From the NCBI GenBank assembly GCA_000002445.1, contig CP000071.1, positions 1,952,001 through 2,016,000 on the forward strand: a stretch of DNA of 64,000 nucleotides, in the 5' to 3' direction. This DNA is from Trypanosoma brucei. Its lineage: Eukaryota. Under the pieces are notes generated by a model. That model saw only the letters and a list, made by a program, of their open reading frames with translations, was not told the DNA's origin and searched no databases. A program made the position numbers and the translations under genes. Positions 14,419-64,000 of this stretch are shown piece after piece; the first letter of the stretch is position 1, and every line of letters starts with the position of its first letter.

Positions 14419-14446
14419 CTGATTGTCCTTTTGCTTCCCTTTGTAG

Positions 14447-14447
<1 letters not shown>

Positions 14448-14527
<80 letters not shown>
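14448..14527. repeat. (CA)40 / (GT)40 perfect dinucleotide microsatellite
   Basis: 80 nt of uninterrupted 'ca' repeats directly visible in the sequence, about 30 nt upstream of the corrected start of the 516-aa gene. Confidence 0.97.
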
Positions 14528-14528
<1 letters not shown>

Positions 14529-33340: not shown

Positions 33341-33817
33341 GGGCATCTGTGTCGAAAGAAAACATACATGGTTACGTGAGTTGTGACTGCAGGTGCAGCC
33401 GTGACGCACGTACAGACACAACAAATGCGGCATTGAGGGGAAAAAAAAGTCGCTGCATCCCATGAATGTATTCAACTAAAGGGGGAAAAAGGAAGACGAG
33501 GCCTAAAAAGTACAAACACGTAATTCGCGAAGTGCCGACAACGACAATCACGAAGCTCCCGAAAAGCAGACGTGCCACCAAACACCACAAATACAAAGGG
33601 GGAGAAATATCCACCAATTGGGCAGCCCCCGATACACTATAAACTACCAAAACACAACACTTCCGTCCACAGGATGCTAGGGTTTCAAAAGGAAATGTGT
33701 GCGCGGTTCCGTCCGACCTACCACGTGCGGAGCCACGGGATTTGACGCAATTAGGCGTATTTGGTCGACATCTTCGCTACCTATTACATCACCATTACGT
33801 CACCTCCATCCCCCCCC

Positions 33818-41115: not shown

Positions 41116-41703
41116 TTATTGCTTCGCCTTGGGGACAACCTCAGACACAGCGTACGGACTACCAACAATGACACACCCCTCCTGTACGTACGGAACAAGT
41201 GCATCTCTCAACCCCATAAGTGCATCTAACCCACCGGTTACCCTTCCAAACGCCACGTGCCTCTTATCTAAAGAATCCAATTCCAGTCGATTGTCTGTTA
41301 AACAAAAGAAAAATGACTCGTCAAAGCTTGTGGATGAACGGCAAAGAGAGGCAATGCCCACCCCGTGGTTTACACGTCCGATTTCTGCTTCTAGCTCGGA
41401 AAGAGGAACGGCCCGAGGGCCTGAACCATCGGCAACCTGGAGTGCCTCTTTTGTCAACCTGACAAAACGGCACCCCTTGTAAGAGCCCCTCTTCGCGTTA
41501 CGCTTGTCACCCACAGTTGGGAAGGCACACGTTTGCAAGAAAAGATCACATGCTTTGGGGACTTTGTTTACGAATAATTCTACATCGATTCTTGTGAACG
41601 GTTCATCACCATCTTTCACAACAAACATCGAAACCACAGGCATGTTATCATCCCCGGTTCCCTCATGAAACTTGTGGACTTTGTTGGACCTCTTGACTGG
41701 CAT
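41116..41703 (-). CDS. Divergent cyclophilin-type peptidyl-prolyl isomerase-like protein (195 aa)
   Basis: Cyclophilin fold landmarks: ELFVNKVPKACDLF, YKGCRFVRL, ...ESFFFCLTDNRLELDSLDKRHVAFGRVTGGLDALMGL (cf. SQFFICT...LDGKHVVFGKVKEGM). Confidence 0.72.
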   Translation of the reverse strand: MPVKRSNKVHKFHEGTGDDNMPVVSMFVVKDGDEPFTRIDVELFVNKVPKACDLFLQTCAFPTVGDKRNAKRGSYKGCRFVRLTKEALQVADGSGPRAVPLSELEAEIGRVNHGVGIASLCRSSTSFDESFFFCLTDNRLELDSLDKRHVAFGRVTGGLDALMGLRDALVPYVQEGCVIVGSPYAVSEVVPKAKQ

Positions 41704-41980
41704 CGCTACGTGACTTCACTTCAAACCCCACAACTCCAACACCAGTAGAAACGAGACAGACTAAATACGTCCAAATGTCACCAATGCAACGTCCTACGTG
41801 AAAGCAGAAGTCAAAAAGAGAGCAAAATAATTTTTACACCAGGGGTTTCAATTACATGAAAGGAATTCGCCTGTGAGAACTCGTGTGCACGCGATTTCCA
41901 TTTTTTTTTCCAGAAAAAAGAAAGCGAAGGACCAGGAAGTAAGTATAAATGAGTATGCCACGCCTGCTACACGTATGCAG

Positions 41981-42775
41981 TTAATACTTCAACGGCTGAT
42001 CAACAGGGTGGTTAACTTCAACATCCCTGACCAACTCGGGTAGTTTACCAAAAACACGATGGTATTCGTCCAGTGTCAAGAAAAGGTCACTCTTCACATA
42101 CATTTTCAGAGACGACGTGTTTGGAAAAAGAGTTGGGTGGCTCGTCCTCGCGTTGTCCAAAAAATTTTTTCTCTTAGAAACGCCTTCTGAAAGGACAAGC
42201 GAAAGTAACTTCGTAAGCTTACGTACGTCATCTGCGACCATCTCCGCAATAACATCTTCAGGTACGTCCACCTTTTCAGACTGGGCTACAACCCCAGGAA
42301 TCTTATCTACAAAACAAACGTATTGACCACCAAGTGGAACGACATCGTCATTTAAATATAGCACCCGCACGTCAGAGAAAATAGGTTCCTCCGTAGACTT
42401 GCATTCGGCGTCCATGAGTATCAAAAGTTCAGCCACATATCGATCAACCGCTTCAAAGAGCCCAACAAAGTGTGTCCCATAATCGAGAAAGATACCCGAC
42501 GGTGGTGAAGGGGGGCAACTCTGCTCGCTCAATGGGTTTCGACTCTTAACTGTAGCTGCATCGATCAGTTCCTGAAACACCTGGGAAAATGGACGCGAGG
42601 AGTCCTCCTTTAATTCGCCTGCAATTACTACCTTGGAAATAAAGGGATCCGTTCTATTTCTTTCCATCGTATGAAACTGCTTGAGCATTACATCCAGCAA
42701 TGTTTGCGCCTCCTCAAATGTATCTGCAGCCCGTAGTTGAGCATCCTCGGCTACACTCGACCCACCTTTTGTCAT
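41981..42775 (-). CDS. Hypothetical protein (264 aa); first gene of the minus-strand array
   Basis: Clean ORF with a purine-rich (poly-Y on minus) tract just upstream at 42776-43000. No family recognised. Confidence 0.5.
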   Translation of the reverse strand: MTKGGSSVAEDAQLRAADTFEEAQTLLDVMLKQFHTMERNRTDPFISKVVIAGELKEDSSRPFSQVFQELIDAATVKSRNPLSEQSCPPSPPSGIFLDYGTHFVGLFEAVDRYVAELLILMDAECKSTEEPIFSDVRVLYLNDDVVPLGGQYVCFVDKIPGVVAQSEKVDVPEDVIAEMVADDVRKLTKLLSLVLSEGVSKRKNFLDNARTSHPTLFPNTSSLKMYVKSDLFLTLDEYHRVFGKLPELVRDVEVNHPVDQPLKY

Positions 42776-45700
42776 ATTTCAATATCGACGGAAGCTAGTT
42801 GATGCGGTGGAAAGTGATAGGGTTAGCAATATCAGACGGAATTTGGCTCTCGAATAAGACACTGAAAGTAAGAAGACTAGGTGCGTCACTAGAAAAGAAT
42901 ACGGCATACGTCATGCCCACATAAACACAAAGGCAAACCGGGAACATATTGTATGCCCCTTCATACCATCCAAGGATATAACAGTAGGGTTAAAGCACCA
43001 TGTGATCAGTATGACTGGGTTCAAAAAAAAATACTTACATCACGTATTAATAGTCTTCCAGGATGCAAAACATAACAGACTGACTATGGTGAGATTTGCC
43101 CCCACAGATGCCATGAGACTTCTGACCGTCGCTACCGCTGGATGTAGGAACGGCGATTTAGTGATATGCATCGAAGTGAGCAGACTGGATGCTGCAACAT
43201 TTTCAAACGGCATCCGATTCCCAGAAAATGTCTCTGAAAGTTCCAACTCAAGTAAAGGTGGAAAACACGCTAATGCCAGTGAGCAGTAGCTGATGCAACC
43301 CACGTAACGGTCAGAAGTGTATCAGAAATGATTCACGATGTTTTCTATATCACAGGTGGAGAGTGATTGTAAAAAAGAGGCTCAGATATTCCCTCTGGCC
43401 GAGACTGCAGAATCTAGGTGGGAAGCGCCGCATCGTAAAACAAAAATAACGCCTTCGGAGTCCACCATGTCGCGCAGAGAGTTTTCGGTGATATATTAGT
43501 TAGTGCCACGAAAAAAGAACGCAGTAAAAAAAAACCACATGGTACAAAAAGGTTGAATCACCTAACAAAGGAAAAGGGGAAAAAGAGCGTCCAACAACAA
43601 CCATTACACAAAGAAAAAAGTAAAAGAAATGTAACGACACACCACCAAAGTGTGTAGCAATCCTTTGCGGCCGCATACCTCCGACAAAGCGTACCACATA
43701 AATGCACTTCTTGAAGATATGCAAGTTTGCACAAACCCACTTGCCCGAATGTATGCATTTTCCTAGACCGCACCCTGTCCCCTCTTTTTTTCCTTTTTAC
43801 AGGTGGCTGAGATGCTATGAAAACATGGAGACCCTCCCCATCTCACAAACACACCCCCTCGCGAGAACACAAACAACGCTCTCGTTATAAACGGCCTGTT
43901 CCACGGCAAAGCGTGGCGTTAGGAAAGCTCTTACATATTCCTCATTACGACTAGGCGCGTCGAACGAAGAGGAAGGGGTACACGGGAGAGCACTTCCACA
44001 TCCTACCTCTTTCAAGCTTGTGCAGAAAGCGGATCGGGTCCCCCGTGGGAAAGCAACCATCTTCATGCAGCACTTTTAGGGTAGGACACCGCAGTCCGTG
44101 TGGGGAAGTTCCCTTGAGGCATACCTCCAGAGTATTAAGCTGAGTAGCTACATTGTGTCCGTGTTTGTACCTGACGAAAACAACTCGTTCGACGCCTTTC
44201 GTTGGGAAGTCTGGGCACCGGAGGAGTTTTGGAGCCAGATTTGGCACCAGGGCGGTTCCGTCACCCACATCTCCTCTTGCTGTGTCTCCCGCCGGGTGCT
44301 CATGCCTAGCGACTCTGGCCACCCCTGACATGGACATATTGCTTACCCCACCAACCGCACCTGTGGCACCTTCCACTCCGACTTTCGATTAATGCTTTCT
44401 TTTTTTGCGTGTGTGTAGCAGTTCCCGACCCCTTGCTGAGGAAGAAGGATGTTGATGTTTTCGCTATCTTCCTGTTCGCCCCCATCCCTGCACTCCTTGC
44501 CATCTTGACCTTCATTTACTAGGCTAGCCCTCTCATTGCCTCACATATTCCGCCCCCTAATTCCGGCGTCAGTATTCCCCCGATCAACGGGGGTGTTGCC
44601 TCTTCATATATTTGGGCACGTAACCCCAGTGACAGTGCCTTGGACATGTAGGATGTCTCGGTTGTTCGACCACCATATGAACATGCCACCACTACTCCGT
44701 GGTGACTCCCGCATACAAAACCTGTGATCTGCCAACTGAACATTCCACCCGAACGTTTCGAGCGTACTCAGCGTCCAAACATTTCTCCGACTGCTTGTGT
44801 GTCGCTCCCTGTGGAGCGATACCCGTCCTTTCCGCTCTTGCGCAGTTGGGCCTGCGCCTGCCACCCTTCGACTGGCGGAAAGCTGTTCACCAAAAGCGCT
44901 GGATTCGCCACCGGTCATGGGTTTTGCATAGGAATCGCGCGATTTCACGCGCTTTGTTTTTTCGCAGACACCTGGGAGATGCTGTCCCTCCACCTGTTGA
45001 AAGTTTTCAAACACGGATATTGGCATCCGTCTGACGGGGTCATCCTCCATATATTTCCTCTGGAGTGCCCCTGGAACGTACCCCCCGGATCTCGCACTTC
45101 TCTGCTCCAGGTTGGAAATGCCACTCTCTTCTTCCTGGGAATAGGTTCCGTTTGAGCACGGTAGATTGCGGATGGCATTATCTCACTCGTGGTGCGCACA
45201 CCTTACAACTACTAGGGAGGCCGTTCCGTCATCTTGGATGCACGCTATCTCCTGGGATGTGGCCGATCTGATTTCTCAAAAGAAGAAAAAGAAAAACATC
45301 TTCGGTTGGTGGCTCGCGGTACTGATTCCGCTGGTAGCCTACCAGCGGCATCAGAGGTTACACAGCCGTAATCACTGCCAGAGTTGTTTTTGGTTAACCC
45401 GTTCTGCCGATGCACCGTATCCTTGGAAAGCGATAACTGGGCAGGCATCTGCTTCGCGGTTCTTTTTCTCCCATGTGGCCATATCCCTTTGGCTATTTTC
45501 ATTCGCGCGGTGGAGCCACAAACCAAAACTATTCCCCCGCCCGTTAACCCTCTGAGGCAAAGGGGAGCCACAAAAGTTGTTGGTGGTTCACGCTTACTAC
45601 CGCAACCGGTGGTGTTTCCACCACAGCCCAGCGGTTGCCGCTCAGTTGCGGCCACACTGGAACCCTCTTGAAAGCAGGCTGCTGTGACAGTAAGCGGGTT

Positions 45701-47222
45701 GGCAACAGCTACGCTGGGGCAAGGGTTATTGTTGAAGCATCCAAGCTAGGTGGGTCCCCTACATCTTTTGAGTGACGGTGGCTGAGAATGGATATCCCAC
45801 CTTGATTTGTCAGCAGCTCACACCAGCAAACTTCTAAAGTGCTGTTATTATCGTCATGCCGCGATGGTTCAGAGAAGAGAATGGTGTTGGCTGCTCGCCA
45901 TTTTCTTTTTTTTTTTTGGGGGGGGGTCTGGGTGGGGCACAGGCGTGTACGCCTCCCTCTCGAGAGTCAACGCCCAGTCGTTTATAAGACCGTGACGTGG
46001 CCAGAGTGGCCCATGGTAGGTATAATAGATTTCCCTCTGAACATTATGTTATAAAGCGGGGAAATTTGTGCTAACACTCAATTTTACGTTTGCCATACAC
46101 TGCCTTTTTGGCACTGTTAAACTGTCACTTGCTCAGGAATGCCAGTGCTGGTGGTTTGGATTCTCGTACACAGTGTTTACCCGGATGTTTACAGCGTTTC
46201 CGGCAGCGTTGGTTGACCGTTTACTGTAATCTCGAATGACTTCTGATCTTGGGTTGCAGGTGTTTGCTTACCCAACGTGGCTGTGACGGAGGTCCCAGTG
46301 ATGTGTTTTCTCCCCCGTCACTTGTAAACGCTGGAGGCTACTTAATATCTGTTGATAGGTTTTTAAAGTGGGGAAGGAAAAGTATCACCTCTGCAAGGAA
46401 ATTAACAACATCCCGCTTATCTCGTCTCGCAATGCGTCACTAGCGGGATGCTTCCCCCTTCGCACTGAAGTAGGAAACTCTGCCATTTTTAAAAAAAACC
46501 TGGCAAAAAGTAGATGCACAGTGACCTCTTGTAAAGCGGCGTTGTTAACTTAATCCGTGCGTTTTTGTTTAGTCGCTTTCAAGCGACATTTCTGTGTATA
46601 TCTAGGCATGTGTGAGGATCCTCTCCATATCCTCGCCGGTCTGATGTTTGCTTTGTTGCGCACCTGAGCGTTAACCGGGCATCCACGGGGTTATGTTGAA
46701 CACCTAACTGTGTGATTCTGACAGGTGAAATACTGTTTATCCTTGCCGAGTGATTTATGTTGATTAATGGCTGAGTGACAAACGTCCCTGATTATGCTAA
46801 CAGCACCGTCAGACAACTGACACTCGCTTGATGGTTCACATAGTGTCGTCACACTCTCTACATTCCATAGCCGGCGCTGTACTTAGATTTGTTTGTTTTG
46901 CAGTCTTACTTTCACAAGGAGTAACGACCTTACTTGAAGTATATATGTGTGTGCTGTGCTTGATTGACGGAGTTTCCCAAGGGAGCTGTTTCTCACCTCT
47001 TCCTTTGTGGTGCCGTATTTACGGTGGCAAGTGCGACCAGTCACGCTTCGTATTGGTGGTGGTGGTTCTTTGTCGGCCACTTTAACCGCCGCTTTTGGGC
47101 ACTAATAAATTTATCGGTACCATTTTATAAGGTGTGTATATTTTTTTGCCCGCAGTTGGCACGTATAAAACAGCTTCCGGCTCCTTTCCTTTTCTATTTG
47201 CTCATCATTACGTAGAGTTTCG
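42776..47222. promoter_or_regulatory. Divergent strand-switch region; candidate RNA polymerase II transcription start region for both polycistronic arrays
   Basis: 4.4 kb with no ORF over 150 aa. Every gene to the left is minus-strand and every gene to the right is plus-strand. Plus-strand intergenic composition flips from purine-rich (left array) to pyrimidine-rich (right array). Contains the T12-G9 run and GT-rich stretches. Confidence 0.6.
45906..45937. repeat. T12 homopolymer followed by a G9 run and GGG-T-GGGG (G-quadruplex-capable)
   Basis: 'ttttttttttttgggggggggtctgggtgggg' is visible directly. Runs of G are the one sequence feature repeatedly noted at trypanosome divergent strand-switch regions. 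Confidence 0.85.
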
Positions 47223-48518
47223 ATGGCCGAACCGTTCTCGACGATCCTTGGAACCGACGGCAGCGGTGGTCGGTGTAAATACCTGAACAAAGGGATTGTA
47301 GGATTGGGTTCCTATGGTGAAGCATATGTAGCGGAGAGCGTGGAGGATGGGTCTCTTTGTGTAGCAAAAGTCATGGATTTAAGCAAGATGTCTCAGCGGG
47401 ATAAGCGGTACGCGCAGAGCGAAATCAAGTGTCTGGCCAACTGTAATCATCCAAACATTATTCGTTACATTGAGGACCACGAGGAAAATGATCGGTTGCT
47501 TATTGTCATGGAATTCGCTGACTCAGGCAACCTTGATGAGCAAATAAAGCTTCGGGGCACAGGAGATGCGCGCTACTTTCAAGAACACGAGGCCTTGTTT
47601 CTCTTCTTACAACTGTGTCTTGCCCTTGACTACATCCACAGCCATAAGATGCTGCACCGCGATATCAAATCTGCCAATGTGCTGCTCACATCAACAGGAC
47701 TAGTTAAGCTGGGAGACTTTGGATTCAGTCATCAATATGAAGACACCGTATCAGGCGTCGTTGCAAGTACGTTCTGTGGCACACCGTACTACCTGGCACC
47801 AGAGCTGTGGAATAATAAAAGGTACAATAAGAAGGCTGATGTGTGGTCGTTGGGTGTTTTATTGTACGAAATTATGGGCATGAAGAAACCATTTTCAGCA
47901 AGTAATTTGAAAGGTTTGATGTCGAAGGTTCTTGCTGGCACATATGCTCCCTTGCCGGATAGCTTCTCGTCCGAATTTAAACGTGTTGTTGATGGTGTCC
48001 TTGTAGCGGACCCTAATGACAGACCAAGTGTAAGGGAAATTTTTCAGATACCGTACATCAATAAGGGTCTTAAATTATTTGTGCAAGCACTGAAGAAAAA
48101 CGAACGAATCTCGGACTCGGTGAAGGAGGTCCTCGTAACACAGGTCAGCGAAATCTTATCCTCGGAAGTGAGCCCTGATGCACATCGTTTCCTGGTATCA
48201 CAAATTAACTACGACGTTACACACCGAGGACATGTAAACAAACTGGGTGGTGGAAACGGGAAGTCGTGGAAACCGAGGTTTTTGCAGATTGTTCGCGGAC
48301 AGCTCATTTTAACAGATGATGAAGAAGGAAATAATCCAAAAGGCCTAAACCTTGAACAAGTGCAGGGTGCTTGCCCGGTGCCTCACAGTACTGCAAAGAG
48401 AGATTTTGTGTTTGCCCTCAATACGGTCGGCGGAAAGGGTATGTGGTTTCAGGCTGTATCACATGGGGACATGGAAATGTGGGTTCACGCGATTCAACGT
48501 GGTATAGGTGTCGCCTAA
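47223..48518 (+). CDS. NEK (NIMA-related) Ser/Thr kinase with C-terminal PH domain (431 aa)
   Basis: Kinase motifs LGSYGEAYVA, CVAKVMDL, HRDIKSANVLL, DFGFS, GTPYYLAPELW. C-terminal approx. 100 aa KSWKPRFLQIVRGQLILTDD...DFVFALNT...WFQAVSHGDMEMWVHAIQRG matches the PH-domain pattern. Confidence 0.85.
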   Translation: MAEPFSTILGTDGSGGRCKYLNKGIVGLGSYGEAYVAESVEDGSLCVAKVMDLSKMSQRDKRYAQSEIKCLANCNHPNIIRYIEDHEENDRLLIVMEFADSGNLDEQIKLRGTGDARYFQEHEALFLFLQLCLALDYIHSHKMLHRDIKSANVLLTSTGLVKLGDFGFSHQYEDTVSGVVASTFCGTPYYLAPELWNNKRYNKKADVWSLGVLLYEIMGMKKPFSASNLKGLMSKVLAGTYAPLPDSFSSEFKRVVDGVLVADPNDRPSVREIFQIPYINKGLKLFVQALKKNERISDSVKEVLVTQVSEILSSEVSPDAHRFLVSQINYDVTHRGHVNKLGGGNGKSWKPRFLQIVRGQLILTDDEEGNNPKGLNLEQVQGACPVPHSTAKRDFVFALNTVGGKGMWFQAVSHGDMEMWVHAIQRGIGVA

Positions 48519-48855: not shown

Positions 48856-51800
48856 ATGGCAACCAACGCGCGCATTCTAGGGTTCAACTCTCCCTCTGCT
48901 CTCGTCGCTGCGGGTGACGACTTTCTCCTAGGAGCGGGGGGTGGCATCGTTATCCGACGCAAGGAAGAGTCGTCCCAGTGGATCCCTTGTGAAGGGCGCT
49001 ACGCGATCGGTGCGCTGGCGTTTTCACCCTCTGCAGGTTTGCTGTGCGTAACTGAGGTGAAGCTGGATGTGTCGCTGCACGTTTTCCGATTTCCAGAACG
49101 TCACCACCTGCAGTGTATTGATAATGTTGCGACCGTGGATGTGCAGCACATGTTATTCTCGAGTGATGGAGAAATGTTAGCCCTTCTAACATGTATACCA
49201 ACAACTTGTGTTACTTTTTATTCAGCCGCTCGCGGCAACAGATTGGTGAAATGTGCCTCGACCGAGCTAGGCGGTGTCTTCTGCAAGCACTTAACGTTTC
49301 CGTTGCATCGGCATGATTGTATAGCCGTTTTGGAACCACACGGTGTTCGAATTGCGTGCAACATGGATTCGGCCACATTTGTACCAAGTATTCTCACATT
49401 GAGTTCGAAGGGACACTATTTTCACTCTTGCGTATGGGGCACTGAGGGTCTGTACTGTGGTGCTGGTAGGGGTCAGGTAGTTCTCTTGGACGAGCTGAGA
49501 ACAGATATGAAGAATTGTATAAACTGCGAAACACCTCACAATGTTACTGCTCTACTGCAAAACGGGACTCTTTTATTCATTGGAACGGAGTGTGGTGATG
49601 TGTTTACTTACAATATTGATCAGAAGGCACAACGGCTGCTTGTGAGATTAGGTCGTTCGGTAGTTCGTTTACTGACGTTACCAGACGTAAATGATGTTTT
49701 AGTTGCAACCAGTACCGATGTAACAAAAATTTCTGTGGACACCGCGCAGTCTGTTTTTGTTCGACGCCGGAGCGCCTCCGACACTGTGAAGCTTCTGGTG
49801 TTGGGAGGTCTCGTCGTGATAGTGTGTTTAGATGGGAGTCTCGTTACTTATGATCAGGACACGAATACAGCGGTGCACAACCCTGTCAGATTTCCCGAGA
49901 AAGTTGTAGATGCGTGCGTCGTGGACTCCGTAGTGGTAGTCGTATATGACAGCGGGTTCGTCCGTTCCTTCACAGTGGAAAATACCGTTAGTGTTGTTTC
50001 CCAGATGAAGGTAAGTGACTGTCCCTTGACCGCTTGCACATCTGACGGAGTTTCACTCTTAGCTGTATGTGACAAAAATGTAGTCCATTTCATTGAGGTG
50101 GCAGATGGACTTCTTGAAACCGCAGCCTCCTCGGATATATTCGCTTGTGCCGTGACTAACTTGCGATGGGCAGTGAATGGTGGACAATCGGTGCTGGCAG
50201 CATGTAACAATGGCGAGGTGCACAACTTACGCTTCACTGGGAAGTGTGATTCCGCGTCAGCTGGTGTGACTGTTGATATGACTTGGCGCTTGGACTTCCC
50301 GGTTAACGACTTTCTGCCTCTCTACGGTGACGGCGATGTGATCAACGTCTTCGTCCACTCGGTGGACAAAGACACCAAGATGTACGCCCTGGAGCGGCAG
50401 CGAGTAAAGGAGAGTAAACCCCTGAGGCCTTACTTCCTTATGCGTGATCATGAATGCGGTGGCAATGTGCTGCAGCGTCTTGGAGGGGATAGCATCATTT
50501 CCGCAGGAGGAGATGGCAGAGTAGTTGTAAGGGATATCTCACACTACTTGATGAAATTACCTCCTGTGCCACCGACGAAAGAAAAGAAACACCCACTTAA
50601 GGAATTTTTGTTACGACCGTTTGGTAGGGGCGGTATTACGTGCCTCTCGGTGTGGAATGCTGCCGGAGGGTTTGTCTGTGGAGGAAACGATAGTGTTGTT
50701 CATTTAGTTCCCGTTGGGAAATCACCTATCCACTATTCATGGAGTGAACCCTTCTGGCACCAAAGAGCTATCTCAACATCACCGAGTCGTGCAAGTTCTC
50801 CAAGTGATGCTGAAACACTTTCAGCAGAACGGTCGCGCTGCCGTATAATATCGGCTCTGGCCGACCTGAGGATGGAAGTAGAGAAGCTGCTCCAGGAAAG
50901 AACCCCAACTGTGCGCGCAGAAGACTTCCTTTTGCCTGAACAACGACAAGCGTTTAACGAGGAATGTGAGGTGGAGATCCACAAGGCGAGGGAAGATGAC
51001 TACTACAGCCTGGTTCACAATGAGTTCGTGCAACACACGATCAAAACTGAATGTTGGGACGTCATGGAGGTGCAACGCTCGAAAATCGTGAGCATGACAG
51101 ATCCCGAAACGGAAGTTCACAACTTCCATCTGCGAAAACCTTGTGCCCAACGAGCAAAAATACAGAAAAAAATCAAACTGATGAGGGCTATACAGATAAA
51201 GACTGAGGAGTGCTTTACGTTGTCATCACTAGTTAAAAGGGCTAAGGAGGGGAACTTATGCACGGAGCAGCAGGTTTGCGGGCCCCCCAGTGATGTAGAC
51301 GAATTGCTTTATGACACTTTGGACGTCTACACCGGCCCTCGCGCGACCATACAGTTGATTTTGCTAGAATGTAAAATTCTTCACGAAAAAAAGTCATTCA
51401 ACATCCGGTTTGACACCTTGCGGGAGCGCAAGAGCCGAGAGCTGAATCTCATTGCGGAAAGGAACGGACGTTGCGTTCGCATCATGCAGCAGCTGGGAGA
51501 GCACACGTGCCCACCAAATGTTTTATTCACTCCTGTTTTTGATATAGAGGAAGACCCCCAAACTGTCTTTGAGGTTTTTGACTCTGAGATTGACCCTGAA
51601 CTCCTCAAACTAGCCGTCAAAAGTGACGATGGGGAGCTTGTAGTTTCCCCTTCCGATGAAGCTGCTTTAAAGACCTGGATGGATGGCCTCGAGAAAGTCA
51701 CCGAGGTTCTTCGCGTCAACGTGCCGATTCCCCCATTCGCTGACAACTCACTCGAGCAATATGTACCGCCTGAAGAGCGGAGTGATGAGCAACAGAGAAT

Positions 51801-53238
51801 ATTTGAGGAGTATGAAAAAGAGGTTGCAGAACAAACTGTGTTGATCAATGAGAAGAAAGAGTTACTGCGAGGGGAAGTTGCAGCATTGGTGAAAGCTAAC
51901 ATGACTTCTGCGAAAGCAATAGATGATGAGATTGACGTGCTAAGAACTGACCGTATGCTAGTCGCTCAACTCGTGGACGAGCTGGAGCTACACCAGGTGA
52001 ATGCGCTGTGTCTGTTTCTACTCAAGAAAACGATCCGCAATAAGTTTCTGGGTGTCAAGCGAGAGGAGGAGGACCTTCTGTGCCGGTTGAGGCAATTGGA
52101 TAGTCTTTACGAGTACCGCCTGAAATTGTATTTGGCCTCGGAGGCGAGGGTGCAGGACTGCATTGAAGAAGAAAAGAACATGATTACGGACATGCGCTGT
52201 TTGCCCCCATTCACCGATCCGGATTGGGGAGAGAGACTGAACAGGCGCTTCACGACTTGGCGTTCCAAGTACGAGGATGGCCTGGCTAAGGTCCCGGAAC
52301 CCACTCGCTCGGGTGTGGTTCCTATTCCACTATGGGAACAGTACTGCCAGTGCTGTAGGGCAGTCGTGGAGGCAAGGGATAAAATAATTCACCTTAGAGG
52401 CGAAGCAGACGCACTCAATGATGAAGTGGTAGAGGTTGAGACGGAAAAAAAGAAAGCACAGTTTGCACTTGACGACAAGGAAAAGGCCGAGGAGGCATGT
52501 AGAAAAGAAGTCATAGAGAAGGTACTCGACATACAAAACTTGTACACGCTGCAGCAAGGACAGGTGCAGGATGAGAACGCTATGGTGAGCGATGATTTCA
52601 CCGACTTCTCCATTCGATGGGTGAAGAACATTACAGATTACAACGACCTTATCTTCGCTAGCTTTGACGAAATACGATCCCTTATGAGTCGTTCATCACA
52701 ACTTCGGCAGTCTATGAAAACATGCTCTTGGGAAACAGAACGTCTGTTATACTGCATTGGAACGCTAGAAATGGAATTACGGCAGTTGCACACATTAAGA
52801 GTGACTCGGCAGATGCAGGAGACCATCCATACCGGCGCTGTAACGTCTCTCGAAAGGGAAATAAACAAGATGGATGCACGAATCGAGGCTGTTCGAAGTG
52901 TCATGTCAAAGAAGGTTGAGGAGCGTAACCGGGTCATATCAAAGCTAAAAATGCAAATTAACGACAGACGCGCGGAGAACCAGTACCTGAACAACCAAGT
53001 CCAAGCTCTGACAAACAGCGTTGAGGATAAGAAAGCTGTATGGGGTATGCTTGGGGAACACAACAATGATAAAGATCGTCTCCGTGAGAGGATGAGGGAA
53101 CTATACGAGAATAGCGAACTTGAGGAGTTGGCTCGCTGCCAGCAAGAGGAACTTGTTCGCCTTAAAAACGAGGTAGATCGCTTGCGTGAGGCCACATTTC
53201 CCTCATTTGCTGTTGTTACGAGGAGGACCGCCAGATGA
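48856..53238 (+). CDS. Large WD40/beta-propeller (N-terminal ~650 aa) plus coiled-coil (C-terminal ~800 aa) protein (1460 aa), CFAP43/44/57-like architecture
   Basis: 4.4-kb ORF. N-terminal half has repeated beta-strand/WD-like units. C-terminal half is heptad-rich and E/K/R/L/Q-dominated. Confidence 0.7.
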   Translation: MATNARILGFNSPSALVAAGDDFLLGAGGGIVIRRKEESSQWIPCEGRYAIGALAFSPSAGLLCVTEVKLDVSLHVFRFPERHHLQCIDNVATVDVQHMLFSSDGEMLALLTCIPTTCVTFYSAARGNRLVKCASTELGGVFCKHLTFPLHRHDCIAVLEPHGVRIACNMDSATFVPSILTLSSKGHYFHSCVWGTEGLYCGAGRGQVVLLDELRTDMKNCINCETPHNVTALLQNGTLLFIGTECGDVFTYNIDQKAQRLLVRLGRSVVRLLTLPDVNDVLVATSTDVTKISVDTAQSVFVRRRSASDTVKLLVLGGLVVIVCLDGSLVTYDQDTNTAVHNPVRFPEKVVDACVVDSVVVVVYDSGFVRSFTVENTVSVVSQMKVSDCPLTACTSDGVSLLAVCDKNVVHFIEVADGLLETAASSDIFACAVTNLRWAVNGGQSVLAACNNGEVHNLRFTGKCDSASAGVTVDMTWRLDFPVNDFLPLYGDGDVINVFVHSVDKDTKMYALERQRVKESKPLRPYFLMRDHECGGNVLQRLGGDSIISAGGDGRVVVRDISHYLMKLPPVPPTKEKKHPLKEFLLRPFGRGGITCLSVWNAAGGFVCGGNDSVVHLVPVGKSPIHYSWSEPFWHQRAISTSPSRASSPSDAETLSAERSRCRIISALADLRMEVEKLLQERTPTVRAEDFLLPEQRQAFNEECEVEIHKAREDDYYSLVHNEFVQHTIKTECWDVMEVQRSKIVSMTDPETEVHNFHLRKPCAQRAKIQKKIKLMRAIQIKTEECFTLSSLVKRAKEGNLCTEQQVCGPPSDVDELLYDTLDVYTGPRATIQLILLECKILHEKKSFNIRFDTLRERKSRELNLIAERNGRCVRIMQQLGEHTCPPNVLFTPVFDIEEDPQTVFEVFDSEIDPELLKLAVKSDDGELVVSPSDEAALKTWMDGLEKVTEVLRVNVPIPPFADNSLEQYVPPEERSDEQQRIFEEYEKEVAEQTVLINEKKELLRGEVAALVKANMTSAKAIDDEIDVLRTDRMLVAQLVDELELHQVNALCLFLLKKTIRNKFLGVKREEEDLLCRLRQLDSLYEYRLKLYLASEARVQDCIEEEKNMITDMRCLPPFTDPDWGERLNRRFTTWRSKYEDGLAKVPEPTRSGVVPIPLWEQYCQCCRAVVEARDKIIHLRGEADALNDEVVEVETEKKKAQFALDDKEKAEEACRKEVIEKVLDIQNLYTLQQGQVQDENAMVSDDFTDFSIRWVKNITDYNDLIFASFDEIRSLMSRSSQLRQSMKTCSWETERLLYCIGTLEMELRQLHTLRVTRQMQETIHTGAVTSLEREINKMDARIEAVRSVMSKKVEERNRVISKLKMQINDRRAENQYLNNQVQALTNSVEDKKAVWGMLGEHNNDKDRLRERMRELYENSELEELARCQQEELVRLKNEVDRLREATFPSFAVVTRRTAR

Positions 53239-53560
53239 TGGCGGTGCCCTGCTGACACTGGCGAGGGGGGGCAAGTGAGGCAGAAGTCGGTGTTATTCGG
53301 ACAAGTGGCAGAAGGAAGTATTATGTAGCAAGTTGGAAACTAGAGAGTTGCGCTCCATTTCGTGACACGGTGGTTCATGTATTTTAGAGCATATACTATC
53401 AGTGAACTAACGTCATCAGAAAAATTTGCCCCACTAGGGCCTTGCAATTGTGGCCTGTGTGCTTACCCGTGTGCTACTAACTTCTATCTTCTGCACAAGC
53501 GCTTTCTTTTTTTTTAAGTAATTGTTGTTGTTGTTGCTTTAGCTGGAAAGTAGTGGTGCT

Positions 53561-53920
53561 GTGAAGCGAATGGAATTTAACGCATCAACTACCAACGAGC
53601 GTGAGCGGCGAATCAAATCTGTGGAGGAAGTACTGCTCCGCATCGCTAAGCATGAGGGTGTTGTTGGATATCTTGTGCTGAACCCTGCAGATGGGCGAGT
53701 TATGAGGTATTCAGGTTTTTCATCAGATGAACGGAAAGTCAAAAAGTATGCAGATAAAATAAATGGCTTCACAGCGTTGGCAGCCTCCACCATCCGTACT
53801 ATTGACTGGAAGGATGACCTAACCTTCCTTCGTATGGGTCTCGGGTTGACCGAAATACTGATAGCACCAGACGTAAACAAGCAGTATGTTTTGATTGTCG
53901 TGCAAGAGATCAGATCTTGA
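53561..53920 (+). CDS. Dynein light chain roadblock-type (LC7/robl) (119 aa)
   Basis: VEEVLLRIAKHEGVVGYLVLNPADGRVMRYS...DLTFLRMGLGLTEILIAPDVNKQYVLIVVQE is collinear with roadblock/LC7 (VEETLKRLQS.KGV.G.IVVN.EGIPI.ST...[28 protein letters not shown]). Confidence 0.8.
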   Translation: MKRMEFNASTTNERERRIKSVEEVLLRIAKHEGVVGYLVLNPADGRVMRYSGFSSDERKVKKYADKINGFTALAASTIRTIDWKDDLTFLRMGLGLTEILIAPDVNKQYVLIVVQEIRS

Positions 53921-54212
53921 TAGAGGAGCTGTGGAAATTGCTATGGCAGATGATGCAGGCTGTGCGGTGGTAGCTGGCTGGGAGATGTTTCTTTTGCTTT
54001 AAATTTCTTTCTGAGCATTCGTTTTGCCTTGTGGAAATGGGAGACTTGGGGACGGCAGGATAATTGTGTTGTTGTCGTGTATCCTTTTCCGAAAAGAGGT
54101 GGCGCAAATACCTCCTGTTGCCTAATTCCGTTTGTTAATGTTCATGTGTGTGCATGTATGTGCGCGTGCTTATGTGTTGTCCCTTTCGTTCTTTTTGTCG
54201 TTACGGGTAGTG

Positions 54213-55370
54213 ATGTACGCTGTGAAACCGTGGGGTAAGGTCCTGCTCGTTGGCAGCGGTGTAGGCGCGTATGCGATGGGGATAGGCATGCGGTGGAGAG
54301 AGTCTAATGTCCAGTTAGTCGAGAAGCGGCGTGATCCCAGCCATGAGCTCAGCAACAGGAGACGTTGCGTGATTACAAGCCAAACACTGAAACTCCTAAG
54401 GGACCTCGGCTGCACTAATGCCAAGGTCGAGAGGATTCTTCAAAAGGCTAAGGGTTGGCGTTTTGTTAGGCCAGACTTGGAGACGATTAGGGAAGGCAGT
54501 ATTTTTCCTGGTTGTGCAGATGGTGAGTCGGTGTACCATTGCGCGGAGGGTGCACTGCAGCGCACACTGCGCACCGAGTACTTACGGTTCGGTGGTGACA
54601 TCAGTTGGGAGACGGAAGCTTTTGATGCATTTGAGACAGGTGATGGAAGTGGGGCTTGGAGCTTGCAGAAGATGTATGGCCTTGAAACAGAGGCTGAGGC
54701 CATCATCACGACCGCTAAAGGAACCTCACTTGCCTCGCTCGTGATTGCGGACGATCCCGACCGGCTGGCGGTGTTATTTGACGAAGAGACAGGCGTCTCC
54801 CCGGGGGGAAGGCAGACCACGGAAAGAATCTTTGGAGCAGCTGATGTAGTAATCGTTGTGGGATCAGGGTTGGTAATTCACATGTGGCATGCTGATAATG
54901 TCATTACATGGAGGCTCATTAGAAAAGCCCGGAGGGAAATTCAAGATCTCCACTCTATAGCACTACATCCAGCTATCCAAGAGGTGCTAGGGAGCAGTAC
55001 CAGCAAGTCCTCCCGCGTCTTGATCGTTCCAGCCACCACACCAGCAATAAAAGACTCTGCCCGCGATGTAAAAGTGAGCGTGTTGGGCGATGGCCTGCTC
55101 CCTGTTGATCCATTTGAGTGGCGGGGTGATCGGGCGCGATGTGGTGTGGAGGAGGCGTCGGCGCTCTGCCGGGCCTTTTACGGGAAAAAGTACCACCGCG
55201 GTAACGTTCCTCGCCTCTTGAGAGAGGTGGAACAGGACGCGCTAGCGAAGCGGGCGGCCATACTCGCGAGAGATCTAAGGGATGCTGAGCATTTTTTGGC
55301 TGTTCTTCCAATTATTGATGGGGAAGACCATGCTCATACAGAGAGCACGTTCTCTCAATTGCCAAAGTAA
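54213..55370 (+). CDS. FAD/NAD(P)-binding (monooxygenase-like) protein (385 aa after start correction)
   Basis: The ORF-track N-terminal 27 codons translate a poly-Y tract. The next Met (MYAVKPWGKVLLVGSGVGAYAMG) gives a Rossmann GxGxxG dinucleotide-binding start typical of FAD monooxygenases. Confidence 0.5.
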   Translation: MYAVKPWGKVLLVGSGVGAYAMGIGMRWRESNVQLVEKRRDPSHELSNRRRCVITSQTLKLLRDLGCTNAKVERILQKAKGWRFVRPDLETIREGSIFPGCADGESVYHCAEGALQRTLRTEYLRFGGDISWETEAFDAFETGDGSGAWSLQKMYGLETEAEAIITTAKGTSLASLVIADDPDRLAVLFDEETGVSPGGRQTTERIFGAADVVIVVGSGLVIHMWHADNVITWRLIRKARREIQDLHSIALHPAIQEVLGSSTSKSSRVLIVPATTPAIKDSARDVKVSVLGDGLLPVDPFEWRGDRARCGVEEASALCRAFYGKKYHRGNVPRLLREVEQDALAKRAAILARDLRDAEHFLAVLPIIDGEDHAHTESTFSQLPK

Positions 55371-60924: not shown

Positions 60925-63900
60925 TGATAGCACGCGGCCCTCGCTTTTGTGCGTCGGCGCGGAGATGCGATTTGGATGGCAACCGTCGGTTTATCATTTT
61001 CTATATAATCGAAGAATGGGGAACTACAGGAGTCACTTTCGCAGAGACTCCAATATATCAATAGATGCTTCAACGGGAATGAAGTGCCTCTCTACCACTA
61101 ATTTCTAACGCCATACGCGTATATTTTTTCCGCAAGAGGAGCTGGATTATGTATTACATTTTGTGGATGCGCTTCTGCGTGCAAGTGCTCACAACTTCCT
61201 TTCTTTCCGTAAGGTTGGCTGCCGCTACCATCATTAATCTGTCAATTGTTTATCAACTTCGCTAACGAGATACGTAGCCTTTTCTCCGTTCTCTCTCTAT
61301 TGCTTGTCACATGTGTTTGTCTGCTTCGACGAATATCGGTTGCAGCAGCAAAGCGCATAGACCGGCGTAGGCAAGATTAAATGCAGGGTTCAACAGAGAA
61401 AACTACGTTGGAGGAGCGAATGATACAAAGGCGCTCGAGTCTCCCCAGTTTGCAGTTGCCGAGTAACTCAAGCATCCCCCCTTTGTCTAAAAACAGTTCG
61501 TTTGCAGAGGGCAGAGTTGTCTCGGACCCGAAGTTGTGGACTGAACGTTTTAACGACGTCTTCCACGTACCACCTGCTCATACATCCCCGGAGGCTAACT
61601 GTCCGAGGGGGCCAAACAAGTCTGAGGAAAAGTCACCCACACCCGAGGTGACGTGCTGCGGTCTTTTTTTTTAGACCAAAGGTTGAGCGGGTATCTTACC
61701 AGTTGTTTTTGTCTATATGCTCCTGTTTATATGCATGTGTTGTTATTCTTTGCCTCTCCATCCATCTCTCTCCCGTAGATCGTTAAGCGCGTGCGGTGGT
61801 AGAGCATTTCAGCTGAGGAAATGGTTTGTCTTATTTGTGATGTTGGCCCAGCAAATGAGAGCCGGCTGTTTTGTGTGTATGTGTGTGTTCGTTTCTTCGC
61901 TAACTTCCATCACTTATCACCTCTATATTTCTATGGAAATTTGAAGAATTTTTTTAATTCATCAGTGAGGAGTTACCCGTTGGCAGGGGTCGACAGACAT
62001 TTCTTCAGGCAATTTGATTCTCACCCTTTCACTACTTGCAGACGTTTAACTTGTATTCGGATAAAGGTAAGCAACGATAGTAAAGGGCATGGTTAGCACC
62101 CACAGAGTTGTGCAGCGGCCGCGTGTAAGGGTTTCCGAATGGTCGCCTTGCAATTAGGGCTCGTAACGGCAAGTGTTGCCTAAAAAGAGGCATTCAGTTT
62201 CAATCATTAGATAAATCAGCAGAGCATGGGAGCGGCAAGGGGTGCGCACAAGTCTCTTACACCTTCTGAACGTTGTTATCTAGTGAACCAGGCAAACAAT
62301 ATTACGTCAGTGTAACGTTGGAGTATGTTGAGGGCCGGTGGGTCGTAACAAACAAAACAAAAGGCGGGGAGCTCCTCACTCTCCTCACCTCTTTGTCACA
62401 CCTGTAAGCTCGAACAAATGCAAGGAATTGTGCTTGATGCCATAGTTCAGGGCTGTTTACTCTTCCTTGCTATTACACGTGTAACTGACTTAGACGCTGC
62501 GCTTCGTTTCGCAAAGAGTTATCCCTCACCTCAGGAAGTTATTGATCGGAATGTCTTCATGTGCCTCCTCAGTGGAACGATGTGATGACAACACCTCAGC
62601 CTCGTGCACCGCGAATTTAGGGTCAGGGACTGCATTTCATTCGAGAGTCATTTGCCAGCAGCCCCCTTCCAGTGGGGTGGCAACCGTTTTGATTGCTTTT
62701 TTGTGTGCGCGTCGCTGATTATCAGTAGGTACCATTAGCTGAATCATTCCCAGCGGCGGCTGAGCGCTACTTCGAGATCCATGAGGATCAGGTGATGTCG
62801 TCTCTTCCCCCTTGAAGTGTCGCGAGATTTCCCATTTAACGTCGCGATAAGGGACATGTGAATACCTGCCGCATGTAAAGTGAGGGAGACCGTGGCACTG
62901 TCGTCACCCCGCCGTGGGGAGAGGGAAGTGCGATATGTGCATATATGTGACAGTGCAGGGAAATCGTGAGTGTTAAATGAACGGGTCCTACGCAGTCCGC
63001 GGGAAGCTGCCGAGGTTCTCCACATGTCGGCGACTTGTTGCAAATGGTATGAAAGAGCTTGTAACCGTAGTTCGCGAGCTATCCGAAGTTTTCCGCGCCC
63101 CACCACACTTGTCGTGGACATTCAGTTGCTTCCTCGCTGTGGCTCCAAACCACGTTCAATGCAAATTCACTTTAACAAGAGGTGGTGGAATGATGGATAT
63201 GGTGTACCCTTTAATTCCGTTTCCCCCTTCTCTTTTAAAACCGACTGAGCCGGTGGACGGGTTTTTAAAAAGAGAAGGAAGGGACAAAATGCCGATCTGG
63301 TGCGCCCGACAATACAATCCGGGGGTCACCACTTCCCTAGGAAAGATTACGAATGGAAGCATAGAAAAGCGGAGCGTGGCAATGAAAGGTGGCTAATACG
63401 TGAAGCGCACGGGGTAATTCGTCAGAAAATCTGGTCTGACGCATCACCAAAAGTAGTGCATGGTCGGCAGAGGAGGGAAGCTCGCAGCGTACTAGAGGTA
63501 AACAGCCAGCAAGTAGGCAGACACTTACTCCGGTACCCAAGGCTAAAAGGAATGAGGGCAGAAACAGAATTAATTGGTGCAGTGGAAAAACAAAAGGGGT
63601 CCGATGGCTGAAGCTGGCACAGTCCCTCATGAAGCTGTCCTCGCTTTTGAATCACAAAAAGAATGACCTTATCACAAACGACAATCACGTAGCCGCAGGA
63701 GGGAAGCACTGAAGCCCAGATGGTGGCAACAGGTCCCGTGACCCAAGTACTGGGCCAATGAAGGTTTACCAAGTCCGACAGCACATTCACAAACAAACGA
63801 GAGTTTGCGTGGGCACGCACGTGTAATGCGGGGGGAACCCCTAGTCACCTTCTCAGACCTTCTGTGAACAATTTGAAGGAGGCAGGTGATGGCAACACGG

Positions 63901-64000
63901 CTCATGCAGGTTCAATGCGTAAGCAAGCAAAAAAATTGTTTGCTATGAACCCTCTCCCTTCTGTCTGTGATAGTCTGTTATCAGCGATCTGTTTGAACAG

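What the first reader, a model, noticed from the sequence alone, without database searches (positions are those of the whole stretch)
42776..47222. 4.4-kb divergent strand-switch region with T12-G9 G-quadruplex motif and GT-rich stretches: candidate Pol II transcription start region
All 19 genes to the left are minus-strand and all 7 to the right are plus-strand. The only gap without a substantial ORF separates them. Plus-strand intergenic composition flips from purine-rich (43500-43800) to pyrimidine/GT-rich (46830-47220). Inside sit a T12 run fused to G9 and GGGTGGGG (45906-45937), several short palindromes (GGCCAgagTGGCC near 45995; CCCCCG-atcaa-CGGGGG at 44577-44593), and a GC-rich island at 44400-45700. 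Trypanosome divergent strand-switch regions are the known bidirectional Pol II initiation sites, and G-runs and GT-rich elements have been associated with them. This is the most likely regulatory landmark in the window.
Basis: partly seen in the sequence, partly recalled or inferred. Interest (0 to 1): 0.6.

Follow-up and report, generated by a model that had tools for sequence, protein, structure and literature searches.

The report
Known trypanosome bidirectional transcription start region

Summary
The window is T. brucei TREU927 chromosome 8, bases 1,952,001-2,016,000. The gap 42776-47222 separates Tb927.8.6920 (minus strand) from NrkA/Tb927.8.6930 (plus strand).

The described features are present at the stated coordinates:
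- the strand switch;
- T12-G9-TCT-GGGTGGGG at 45906-45937, the only canonical G4 motif on the plus strand and the top G4Hunter score in 64 kb;
- the composition flip;
- a GC-rich centre, which is wider than stated (about 43750-46000).

The two short palindromes are chance-level, and one is broken in sister subspecies. The "GT-rich" flanks are no richer than ordinary intergenic DNA.

- Kolev 2010 Table S14 lists 6920→6570 and 6930→7290 as divergent Pol II units, from 5'-triphosphate RNA-seq.
- Bdf3 CUT&RUN peaks flank the gap on both sides.
- T-run/G-run 10-mers are among those Wedel 2017 found enriched on the coding strand at the 5' ends of start regions.

I add two points. The gap has three parts: two roughly 1.1-1.3 kb flanks of opposite strand polarity and a 2-kb strand-neutral, non-coding GC-rich core. 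The chromosome 4/8 duplication junction lies 20 bp upstream of the NrkA ATG, so the whole gap is chromosome-8-specific.

Verdict: already known, low interest.

The parts
41981..42775 (-). Tb927.8.6920 (TEX47-like hypothetical protein), first gene of the left-hand polycistronic unit
   Evidence: Exact protein match to AAZ13456. Pfam TEX47. Coordinates 1993981-1994775 in Tb927_08_v5.1. First ORF of the unit in Kolev Table S14.
42776..43860 (-). Left polar flank: GT-rich on the minus strand (A/C-rich on plus). Inferred to be the transcribed leader and splice-acceptor region of the left unit.
   Evidence: G+T on the minus strand 0.568, GC 0.438. Cumulative keto skew falls until about 44000. Wedel 10-mers occur on the minus strand only, at or below 43854. 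Its role as a leader is inferred.
43832..43860 (-). G-rich/GT-rich element on the minus strand (CGCGAGGGGGTGTGTTTGTGAGATGGGGAGGG), mirror counterpart of the T12G9 site, about 1.06 kb upstream of the Tb927.8.6920 ATG
   Evidence: G4Hunter -1.76, the only minus-strand hit in the gap at threshold 1.57. Contains Wedel 10-mers GTGTGTTTGT and TGTGTTTGTG. The G-rich segment (43830-43877) is identical in four Trypanozoon genomes; one substitution lies downstream at about 43879.
43861..45905 (.). GC-rich, strand-neutral, non-coding core between the two polar flanks. Inferred to be the non-transcribed gap between the twin start regions.
   Evidence: GC 0.532, higher than all 20 ordinary intergenic regions (0.35-0.50). 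G+T 0.508/0.492. Flat bottom of the skew curve. No Pfam, Rfam or tRNA match. ORFs are broken in sister genomes or have nonsynonymous > synonymous changes. Divergence from T. b. gambiense is 10-25 per 500 bp, against 4-10 in genes.
45322..45354 (.).
   Evidence: I4. DNA fold -13.0 kcal/mol. In T. b. gambiense two substitutions in the right arm weaken it, with no compensating change.
45906..45937 (+). T12-G9-TCT-GGGTGGGG: homopolymer junction and canonical G-quadruplex motif on the coding strand of the right unit, 1.29 kb upstream of the NrkA ATG, at the point where plus-strand GT polarity begins
   Evidence: Sequence. Only plus-strand PQS in the window. G4Hunter 2.4, the window maximum. Matches four Wedel EV1 10-mers. 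Present but length-polymorphic in four genomes: T12G9, T8G13AGGAG, T9G10, T12G10.
45906..47222 (+). Right polar flank: GT-rich on the plus strand. Inferred to be the transcribed leader and the polypyrimidine/splice-acceptor region of NrkA.
   Evidence: G+T 0.568, GC 0.461. Cumulative keto skew rises from about 45800. Wedel 10-mers occur on the plus strand only.
47203..47222 (.). Junction of the chromosome 4 / chromosome 8 segmental duplication: similarity to the chromosome 4-type copy starts here, 20 bp upstream of the NrkA ATG
   Evidence: blastn of the window against the T. b. gambiense chromosome 4 locus (L003) and the T. b. equiperdum chromosome 4-type locus (L007). Both alignments start at window 47203 with 98.0% identity over 6.8 kb, and nothing upstream matches. 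Jackson 2007 states that the duplicon begins with Tb927.8.6930, preceded by a strand-switch region.
47223..48518 (+). NrkA/NRKB (Tb927.8.6930), NEK-type kinase with PH domain, first gene of the right-hand polycistronic unit
   Evidence: Exact match to AAZ13457. Pfam Pkinase + PH. First ORF of the unit in Kolev Table S14.
41600..42000 (.). Published Bdf3 CUT&RUN peak on the left flank (chr8 1993600-1994000)
   Evidence: PMC9241505 supplementary tables; coordinate offset of 1,952,000 derived.
50060..54441 (.). Cluster of four published Bdf3 CUT&RUN peaks on the right flank (chr8 2002060-2460, 2002770-3170, 2004257-4657, 2006041-6441)
   Evidence: PMC9241505 supplementary tables. Only unique alignments were used, so the duplicated right side may be under-sampled.

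Best explanation
The gap is a divergent strand-switch region of T. brucei chromosome 8 (Tb927_08: 1,994,776-1,999,222). It holds the 5' ends of two oppositely directed RNA polymerase II transcription start regions.

Proposed mechanism. Steps 1-2 rest on published data for this locus. Steps 3-5 are inferred from sequence anatomy plus published genome-wide rules.

1. Pol II initiates dispersedly and mainly directionally on each side. It produces the Tb927.8.6920->6570 unit leftwards and the Tb927.8.6930->7290 unit rightwards.
2. Acetylated and variant-histone chromatin, read by Bdf3, covers the first genes on both sides.
3. The two roughly 1.1-1.3 kb flanks already carry the GT-rich-on-coding-strand polarity of transcribed DNA. 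They are the leaders of the primary transcripts and contain the first trans-splice acceptor regions.
4. Each flank is bounded on the inside by a G-rich element on its own coding strand: 43832-43860 on minus, and T12G9...GGGTGGGG at 45906-45937 on plus. Long G and T homopolymers of this kind are enriched at the 5' edge of start regions. In synthetic form they exclude nucleosomes, drive orientation-dependent transcription and attract H2A.Z. These two elements are therefore the best candidates for setting the inner borders and direction of the two start regions.
5. The 2-kb GC-rich, strand-neutral, unconstrained core between them is the non-transcribed inter-promoter gap.
For: Identity and coordinates.

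Locus-specific published evidence:
- Kolev 2010 Table S14 lists both units as 'Divergent' putative Pol II units. Enrichment of 5'-triphosphate reads is reported at every divergent unit.
- Bdf3 peaks occur on both flanks and nowhere else within about 100 kb to the left.
- 76% of divergent strand-switch regions lie within 5 kb of a Bdf3 peak.

Genome-wide rules:
- Pol II and small 5'-PPP RNAs peak at the 5' end of H2A.Z regions, with 4:1 sense bias.
- G10 is counted 132 vs 17 (coding vs non-coding strand) in the 5' fifth of 199 start regions. T-run/G-run junction 10-mers are also enriched.
- Synthetic GT-rich elements drive directional transcription and H2A.Z deposition and are nucleosome-depleted. 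The region between divergent start regions is non-transcribed.

Sequence anatomy here:
- Three-part composition.
- Strand-specific 10-mer hits that switch between 43854 and 44406.
- Mirror G-rich sites.
- T/G tract retained in four genomes.
- No gene, RNA family or retroposon hallmark in the gap.
- No spliced or polyadenylated novel transcript listed in the gap.
Against: I could not map raw reads. The locus-level evidence is a gene-level table and peak lists, not a base-resolution start site.

No Bdf3 peak lies inside the 4.4-kb gap itself.

G-rich, G4-prone sequences and the Wedel 10-mers are not specific to the gap. At threshold 1.57 there are 18 further minus-strand G4Hunter hits along the left unit. 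10-mer density in ordinary intergenic regions is equal or higher.

The left side has no G run of 8 or more.

The T/G tract varies in length and the whole gap evolves about 3 times faster than genes. There is therefore no conservation signal for any particular element, and no similarity to the NrkA upstream region of T. conorhini.

Staneva et al. 2022 found no shared motif under Pol II/SPARC peaks.
Confidence: 0.9

Rival explanations
1. The G-rich T12G9/G4 element works mainly as a replication-origin or ORC1/CDC6 landmark, or as an entry site for base J, rather than as a promoter element. Transcription start is then defined by chromatin alone.
For: [quoted passage not shown] The gap has A9 runs at 43023 and 43526 and T12 at 45906. 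In Leishmania, de novo base J insertion occurs near G4-prone G-rich sequences, and J marks some initiation sites.
Against: No locus-level origin, ORC1 or base J data could be consulted. The A-run/T-run arrangement follows automatically from two diverging units with T-rich coding strands. These roles are not exclusive of promoter function. The J evidence is mostly from Leishmania convergent regions.
Confidence: 0.2
2. The gap is long and compositionally odd mainly because it is an evolutionary breakpoint. It would be the scar of the chromosome 4/8 duplication, with the GC-rich core a decayed former gene or mobile element. On this reading its named motifs have no function of their own.
For: Similarity to the chromosome 4-type copies begins 20 bp upstream of the NrkA ATG in two genomes. 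Jackson 2007 places the duplicon boundary at this strand-switch region. Core GC (0.532) resembles coding DNA (0.50-0.51). The gap evolves at an unconstrained rate. The palindromes are not conserved.
Against: No trace of a gene or element was found. Pfam found nothing on 10 ORFs. A search of 1.84 billion representative proteins found only the T. b. gambiense copy and a spurious repeat match. There is no Pr77 retroposon hallmark and no similarity to T. conorhini. Being a breakpoint does not conflict with being the start region, which the published data show it is.
Confidence: 0.15
3. The gap hides an unannotated gene or structured non-coding RNA, so the two arrays are not separated by a pure promoter region.
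For: T. b. gambiense annotation places two small ORFs (126 and 112 aa) in the gap. ORFs 43951-44376(-) and 45245-45655(-) are intact in all four genomes. Kolev's transcript numbers Tb8.NT.101 and Tb8.NT.102 are missing from the final list between 1.98 and 2.01 Mb.
Against: Substitutions in these ORFs are mostly nonsynonymous (1:5, 4:7, 6:10 synonymous:nonsynonymous) with no third-position bias, unlike the flanking genes (7:2, 3:1, 5:1, 10:3). Other ORFs are broken in sister genomes. There are no homologues outside T. brucei, no Pfam, Rfam or tRNA hits, and no listed novel transcript in the interval.
Confidence: 0.05

Closest known systems
Divergent transcription start regions of T. brucei (Siegel 2009; Kolev 2010; Wedel 2017)
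   Same: Divergent gene arrays, a gene-free gap of a few kb, and flanking Bdf3 peaks. The locus is listed in the 5'-triphosphate-based table of Pol II units. G/T homopolymers sit on the coding strand at the inner edge, and the centre is strand-neutral.
   Different: Nothing essential. Only the right side has a long G run. The right border coincides with the chromosome 4/8 duplication junction.
Synthetic GT-rich promoters GT_210_nt / GT_416_nt (Wedel et al. 2017)
   Same: They are built from the same class of 10-mers (G10, T-run/G-run junctions, GT repeats). They act in an orientation-dependent way, deplete nucleosomes and attract H2A.Z.
   Different: The natural element here is about 32 bp, not 210-416 bp of concatenated 10-mers. 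10-mer density over the flanks is no higher than in ordinary intergenic DNA. Activity of this element is untested.
Sequence-specific core promoters in T. brucei strand-switch regions (Cordon-Obras et al. 2022)
   Same: Two oppositely oriented directional promoters within a divergent strand-switch region, as summarised in PMC11796357.
   Different: The paper is not in the held library, so its motifs could not be compared. Staneva et al. 2022 could not find similar motifs under other Pol II peaks.
Mammalian CpG-island-type dispersed divergent promoters
   Same: Broad, motif-poor, divergent initiation next to a GC-rich island with G4-prone sequence. Kolev 2010 draws this analogy.
   Different: Here each side feeds a polycistronic array of dozens of genes. 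The GC-rich island appears to lie between the start regions, not under them (inference).

Membership tests
T. brucei divergent strand-switch region / Pol II transcription start region | Two adjacent gene arrays on opposite strands pointing away from each other, with no intervening protein or RNA gene | tested here: met
T. brucei divergent strand-switch region / Pol II transcription start region | Enrichment of 5'-triphosphate (primary) transcript ends in both directions | not testable with these tools
   Raw data could not be mapped. Published Table S14 of Kolev 2010 lists both units at this locus as 'Divergent' putative Pol II units.
T. brucei divergent strand-switch region / Pol II transcription start region | H2A.Z/H2B.V, H4K10ac and bromodomain factor (BDF3) enrichment over the first genes of each unit | not testable with these tools
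   Published Bdf3 CUT&RUN peak tables place peaks at window 41600-42000 and at four sites in 50060-54441. Histone data (Siegel 2009) are not held.
T. brucei divergent strand-switch region / Pol II transcription start region | G-to-C and T-to-A skew that switches sign, with G/T-run 10-mers on the coding strand at the 5' end of each start region | tested here: met
   The right side is strong (T12G9). The left side is weaker (a G5/GT-rich element, no G run of 8 or more).
Sequence-specific Pol II core promoter (Cordon-Obras 2022) | Match to the experimentally defined promoter boxes | not tested
   Paper not held, so no motif was available.
DNA G-quadruplex | Four G3+ tracts with loops of 1-7 nt; G4Hunter at or above 1.57 | tested here: met
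   45918-45937 GGGGGGGGGTCTGGGTGGGG; G4Hunter 2.4. Actual folding (G4-seq, Marsico 2019) was not checked.
ingi/RIME/DIRE/SIDER retroposon remnant | Pr77 hallmark at the 5' end | tested here: not met
   An nhmmer profile of 15 published Pr77 sequences gave no hit in the gap; the best hit in the window had E=2.1.
Replication origin (ORC1/CDC6 site; SNS-seq origin) | ORC1/CDC6 binding or nascent-strand peak; poly(dA) upstream and poly(dT) downstream of the centre | tested here: inconclusive
   A9 runs at 43023 and 43526 and T12 at 45906 fit loosely, but this is expected of any divergent region. No binding or nascent-strand data were available.

The most novel reading that the evidence does not exclude
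The chromosome 4/8 duplication junction lies only 20 bp upstream of the NrkA start codon. Two near-identical (98%) polycistronic units are therefore each listed as starting at a divergent strand-switch region, yet they are driven by completely unrelated upstream DNA.

Both upstream regions nevertheless show the same layout. A GC-rich, strand-neutral block with a G4-prone site is followed by a long T run (T12G9 on chromosome 8; T16 on the chromosome 4-type copy) and then a GT-polar flank.

If this is convergence rather than coincidence, the pair is a natural promoter-swap experiment. It would show that composition and homopolymer architecture, not specific sequence, are sufficient to found a Pol II start region.
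Probability: 0.25. Interest if true: 0.45.

Novelty: already known. Interest (0 to 1): 0.15.

Why it matters
As a landmark it matters only for annotation. It marks where two Pol II polycistronic units of T. brucei chromosome 8 begin, which has been in the literature since 2009-2010.

The added detail could help people designing promoter dissections at this locus. That detail is the three-part anatomy, the mirror G-rich elements, and the exact duplication junction 20 bp upstream of the NrkA ATG.

It also flags that short-read signal to the right of chr8:1,999,203 is confounded by the 98%-identical chromosome 4 copy.

Tried and rejected
1. Retroposon relic. The palindrome region 'CAGTATTCCCCCGATCAACGGGGG' resembles ingi Pr77 nt 40-58. 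A profile of 15 published Pr77 sequences found nothing in the gap, so this was rejected.

2. Hidden protein gene. Pfam on 10 gap ORFs found nothing. A full HMMER search with ORF 43951-44376(-) found only the T. b. gambiense copy and a spurious tandem-repeat translation. Substitution patterns are non-coding.

3. Hidden RNA gene. Rfam at gathering and at E<=1, and ARAGORN, found nothing.

4. Deep conservation. tblastx and blastn against the 4.4 kb upstream of NrkA in T. conorhini gave no significant similarity. T. congolense orthologues had no retrievable DNA.

5. The TREU927 chromosome 4 and chromosome 8 records themselves were not retrievable by exact protein look-up. T. b. gambiense and T. 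b. equiperdum copies were used instead.

6. Siegel 2009 and Cordon-Obras 2022 are not in the held library. Histone-mark coordinates and promoter boxes could therefore not be compared.

7. The bacterial-type promoter/terminator scan is irrelevant to this eukaryote. Promoter-like sites were at shuffle level (3 vs 4.2+-2.1); terminator-like sites were somewhat more numerous (9 vs 4.7+-2.4) but have no meaning here.


Full report
**Identity of the window.** The proteins flanking the gap are identical to GenBank entries of Trypanosoma brucei brucei TREU927 chromosome 8:
- AAZ13456, a hypothetical TEX47-like protein;
- AAZ13457, the serine/threonine kinase NrkA;
- AAZ13458, CFAP43.

Their Pfam domains agree with these names. 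Published coordinates fix the offset at window position + 1,952,000 = Tb927_08 coordinate. Those coordinates are Tb927.8.6920 = 1,993,981-1,994,775 (minus) and Tb927.8.6930 = 1,999,223-2,000,518 (plus). The finding is therefore chr8:1,994,776-1,999,222, the gap between Tb927.8.6920 and Tb927.8.6930.

**Check of the observation.** All large ORFs left of the gap are on the minus strand and all to the right are on the plus strand. The gene counts match published numbering. The gap has no ORF above 148 aa.

T12 (45906-45917), G9 (45918-45926) and GGGTGGGG (45930-45937) are read directly. This is:
- the only plus-strand G run of 8 or more in the 64 kb;
- the only plus-strand canonical G-quadruplex motif in the 64 kb;
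- the top G4Hunter score in the window, 2.4.

Both palindromes exist, but short inverted repeats of that size are expected in numbers. I counted 56 five-bp stems against 40.8+-7.7 in shuffles, and 17 six-bp stems against 10.7+-3.7. GGCCA..TGGCC is destroyed by substitutions in T. b. gambiense and T. equiperdum.

The composition flip is real. The GC-rich island is wider than stated, at about 43750-46000. The 'GT-rich' flanks are within the range of ordinary intergenic regions of the same window: G+T is 0.568-0.593 on the coding strand, against 0.51-0.645 for ordinary intergenic DNA.

**What is in the gap.** I found no recognisable gene or element:
- no Rfam family, at gathering threshold or at E<=1;
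- no tRNA;
- no Pfam domain in the ten longest ORFs;
- no retroposon Pr77 hallmark;
- no homologue of ORF 43951-44376(-) among 1.84 billion representative proteins, apart from the T. b. gambiense copy and a spurious repeat match.

Against T. b. gambiense the gap differs at 10-25 sites per 500 bp, compared with 4-10 in the flanking genes. Gap ORFs are either interrupted in sister genomes or change mostly nonsynonymously (1:5, 4:7 and 6:10 synonymous:nonsynonymous). The neighbouring genes show 7:2, 3:1, 5:1 and 10:3 with a third-position bias. Kolev's list of novel processed transcripts has none in the interval. The gap is therefore non-coding and, at this shallow depth, unconstrained.

**Anatomy.** Composition divides the gap into three parts.

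| Part | Coordinates | GC | G+T |
|---|---|---|---|
| Left flank | 42776-43860 | 0.438 | 0.568 on the minus strand |
| Core | 43861-45905 | 0.532 | 0.508 (plus) / 0.492 (minus) |
| Right flank | 45906-47222 | 0.461 | 0.568 on the plus strand |

The core's GC is higher than in any of the 20 ordinary intergenic regions of the window. The cumulative keto skew is a V with a flat floor from about 44000 to 45800.

The 10-mers that Wedel et al. found enriched on the coding strand of start regions occur on the minus strand only up to 43854, and on the plus strand only from 44406. Each flank is bounded on the inside by a G-rich element on its own coding strand: 43832-43860 on minus (G4Hunter -1.76) and 45907-45947 on plus (2.4).

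The T/G tract is kept in four Trypanozoon genomes but varies in length: T12G9, T8G13AGGAG, T9G10 and T12G10. It decays without compensation in T. b. gambiense.

**Published evidence for this locus.** Kolev et al. 2010 Table S14 lists 'Tb927.8.6920 -> Tb927.8.6570, minus, Divergent' and 'Tb927.8.6930 -> Tb927.8.7290, plus, Divergent' among putative Pol II transcription units. The text states that 5'-triphosphate reads were enriched at every divergent unit, in both directions, coinciding with the histone marks of Siegel et al..

Bdf3 CUT&RUN peaks lie at window 41600-42000 on the left. On the right they lie at 50060-50460, 50770-51170, 52257-52657 and 54041-54441. The nearest other chromosome 8 peaks in the table are about 100 kb and 250 kb to the left. 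Bdf3 sits mainly at divergent strand-switch regions, and only unique alignments were used.

Wedel et al. 2017 report the following:
- Pol II and small primary transcripts peak at the 5' end of roughly 10-kb H2A.Z regions, with 4:1 sense bias.
- G and T homopolymer 10-mers are enriched there on the coding strand.
- Synthetic GT-rich elements drive directional transcription and H2A.Z deposition and are nucleosome-poor.
- The DNA between divergent start regions is non-transcribed.

**Explanation.** The gap is a bidirectional Pol II start region of the usual T. brucei kind. What is shown is the divergent arrangement, the listing as Pol II unit starts, and Bdf3 on both flanks.

What is inferred from anatomy and genome-wide rules is the rest of the model. 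The two polar flanks are the first transcribed DNA of each unit. The inner G-rich elements (T12G9 in particular) help set the inner border and direction, probably by excluding nucleosomes. The GC-rich core is the silent inter-promoter gap.

There are caveats:
- G-rich, G4-prone sequence on the coding strand is common all along the units: at threshold 1.57 there are 18 further minus-strand G4Hunter hits in the left unit.
- 10-mer density in the gap is not above that of ordinary intergenic DNA.
- The left side lacks a long G run.
- No element shows conservation beyond neutral expectation.
- No Bdf3 peak lies within the gap itself.
- Others found no shared motif under Pol II peaks.

**Duplication boundary.** Jackson 2007 reported that the chromosome 8 duplicon begins at NrkA, preceded by a strand-switch region. 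My alignments put the junction at window 47203, 20 bp upstream of the ATG. This holds against both the T. b. gambiense chromosome 4 copy and the T. b. equiperdum chromosome 4-type copy, each at 98.0% identity over 6.8 kb with nothing upstream matching.

The whole gap is therefore chromosome-8-specific. Kolev's table also lists Tb927.4.5390 as the first gene of a divergent unit. The unrelated chromosome 4-type upstream DNA shows a similar layout:
- a GC-rich block at about 5000-6000 with plus-strand G4Hunter hits;
- then a T16 run;
- then a roughly 2-kb GT-polar flank.

With only two cases this is suggestive only. The duplication also means that short-read signal to the right of the junction may be under-counted.

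**Rivals.** Three alternatives were considered.
- A role as replication origin, ORC1 site or base J entry site is compatible with the literature. It could not be tested at this locus and does not exclude promoter function.
- The gap as a mere breakpoint scar with a decayed gene in the core finds no support from homology searches.
- A hidden gene or RNA is unlikely.

**Verdict.** Novelty is 'already known', and interest is low.

Noticed in passing
window 47203-47222; L003 8349; L007 8350: The chromosome 4 / chromosome 8 segmental duplication junction lies 20 bp upstream of the NrkA start codon. Everything to the right is 98.0% identical to the chromosome 4-type copies, and nothing to the left matches.
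   Followed up: yes
window 45322-45354: A 33-nt near-perfect palindrome (16-nt arms, 15/16 complementary, 1-nt loop), the strongest inverted repeat in the gap. I estimate about 5e-4 such repeats by chance in 4.4 kb. It is weakened by two uncompensated substitutions in T. b. gambiense.
   Followed up: partly
L003 8222-9463 (T. b. gambiense chromosome 4): The chromosome 4 copy of NrkA in T. b. gambiense is split into two ORFs (256 and 151 aa) and is annotated as a 207-aa product, so it appears to be a pseudogene. The chromosome 4-type copy in T. b. equiperdum (L007 8370-9662) is intact at 430 aa.
   Followed up: partly
L002 (T. equiperdum contig CZPT02000797.1), end corresponds to window 47657: The T. 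equiperdum contig stops about 455 bp inside the duplicated segment. This is probably an assembly break caused by the chromosome 4/8 repeat.
   Followed up: no
window 14448-14527: A perfect (CA)40 dinucleotide repeat lies inside the mechanically listed minus-strand ORF 12868-14625. The real start codon of that gene is probably downstream of the repeat.
   Followed up: no
window 1337-1345, 19453-19462, 33810-33817: C runs of 8-10 on the plus strand (G runs on the coding minus strand) sit in intergenic or UTR regions of the left unit. All four G runs of 8 or more in the window are on the coding strand.
   Followed up: partly
L005 3285-3860 (T. conorhini, upstream of NrkA): A duplication of about 495 bp lies upstream of the T. 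conorhini NrkA gene, seen as paired tblastx hits offset by 495 bp. The two small ORFs called upstream look spurious.
   Followed up: no
window 60925-64000: A second ORF-poor stretch holds only small ORFs (139 aa or less). Published non-annotated transcripts Tb8.NT.103 (about 62042-63146) and Tb8.NT.104 (from about 63248) map here. The 97-aa ORF at 61381-61674 matches Tb927.8.6990 by its published poly(A) site.
   Followed up: partly
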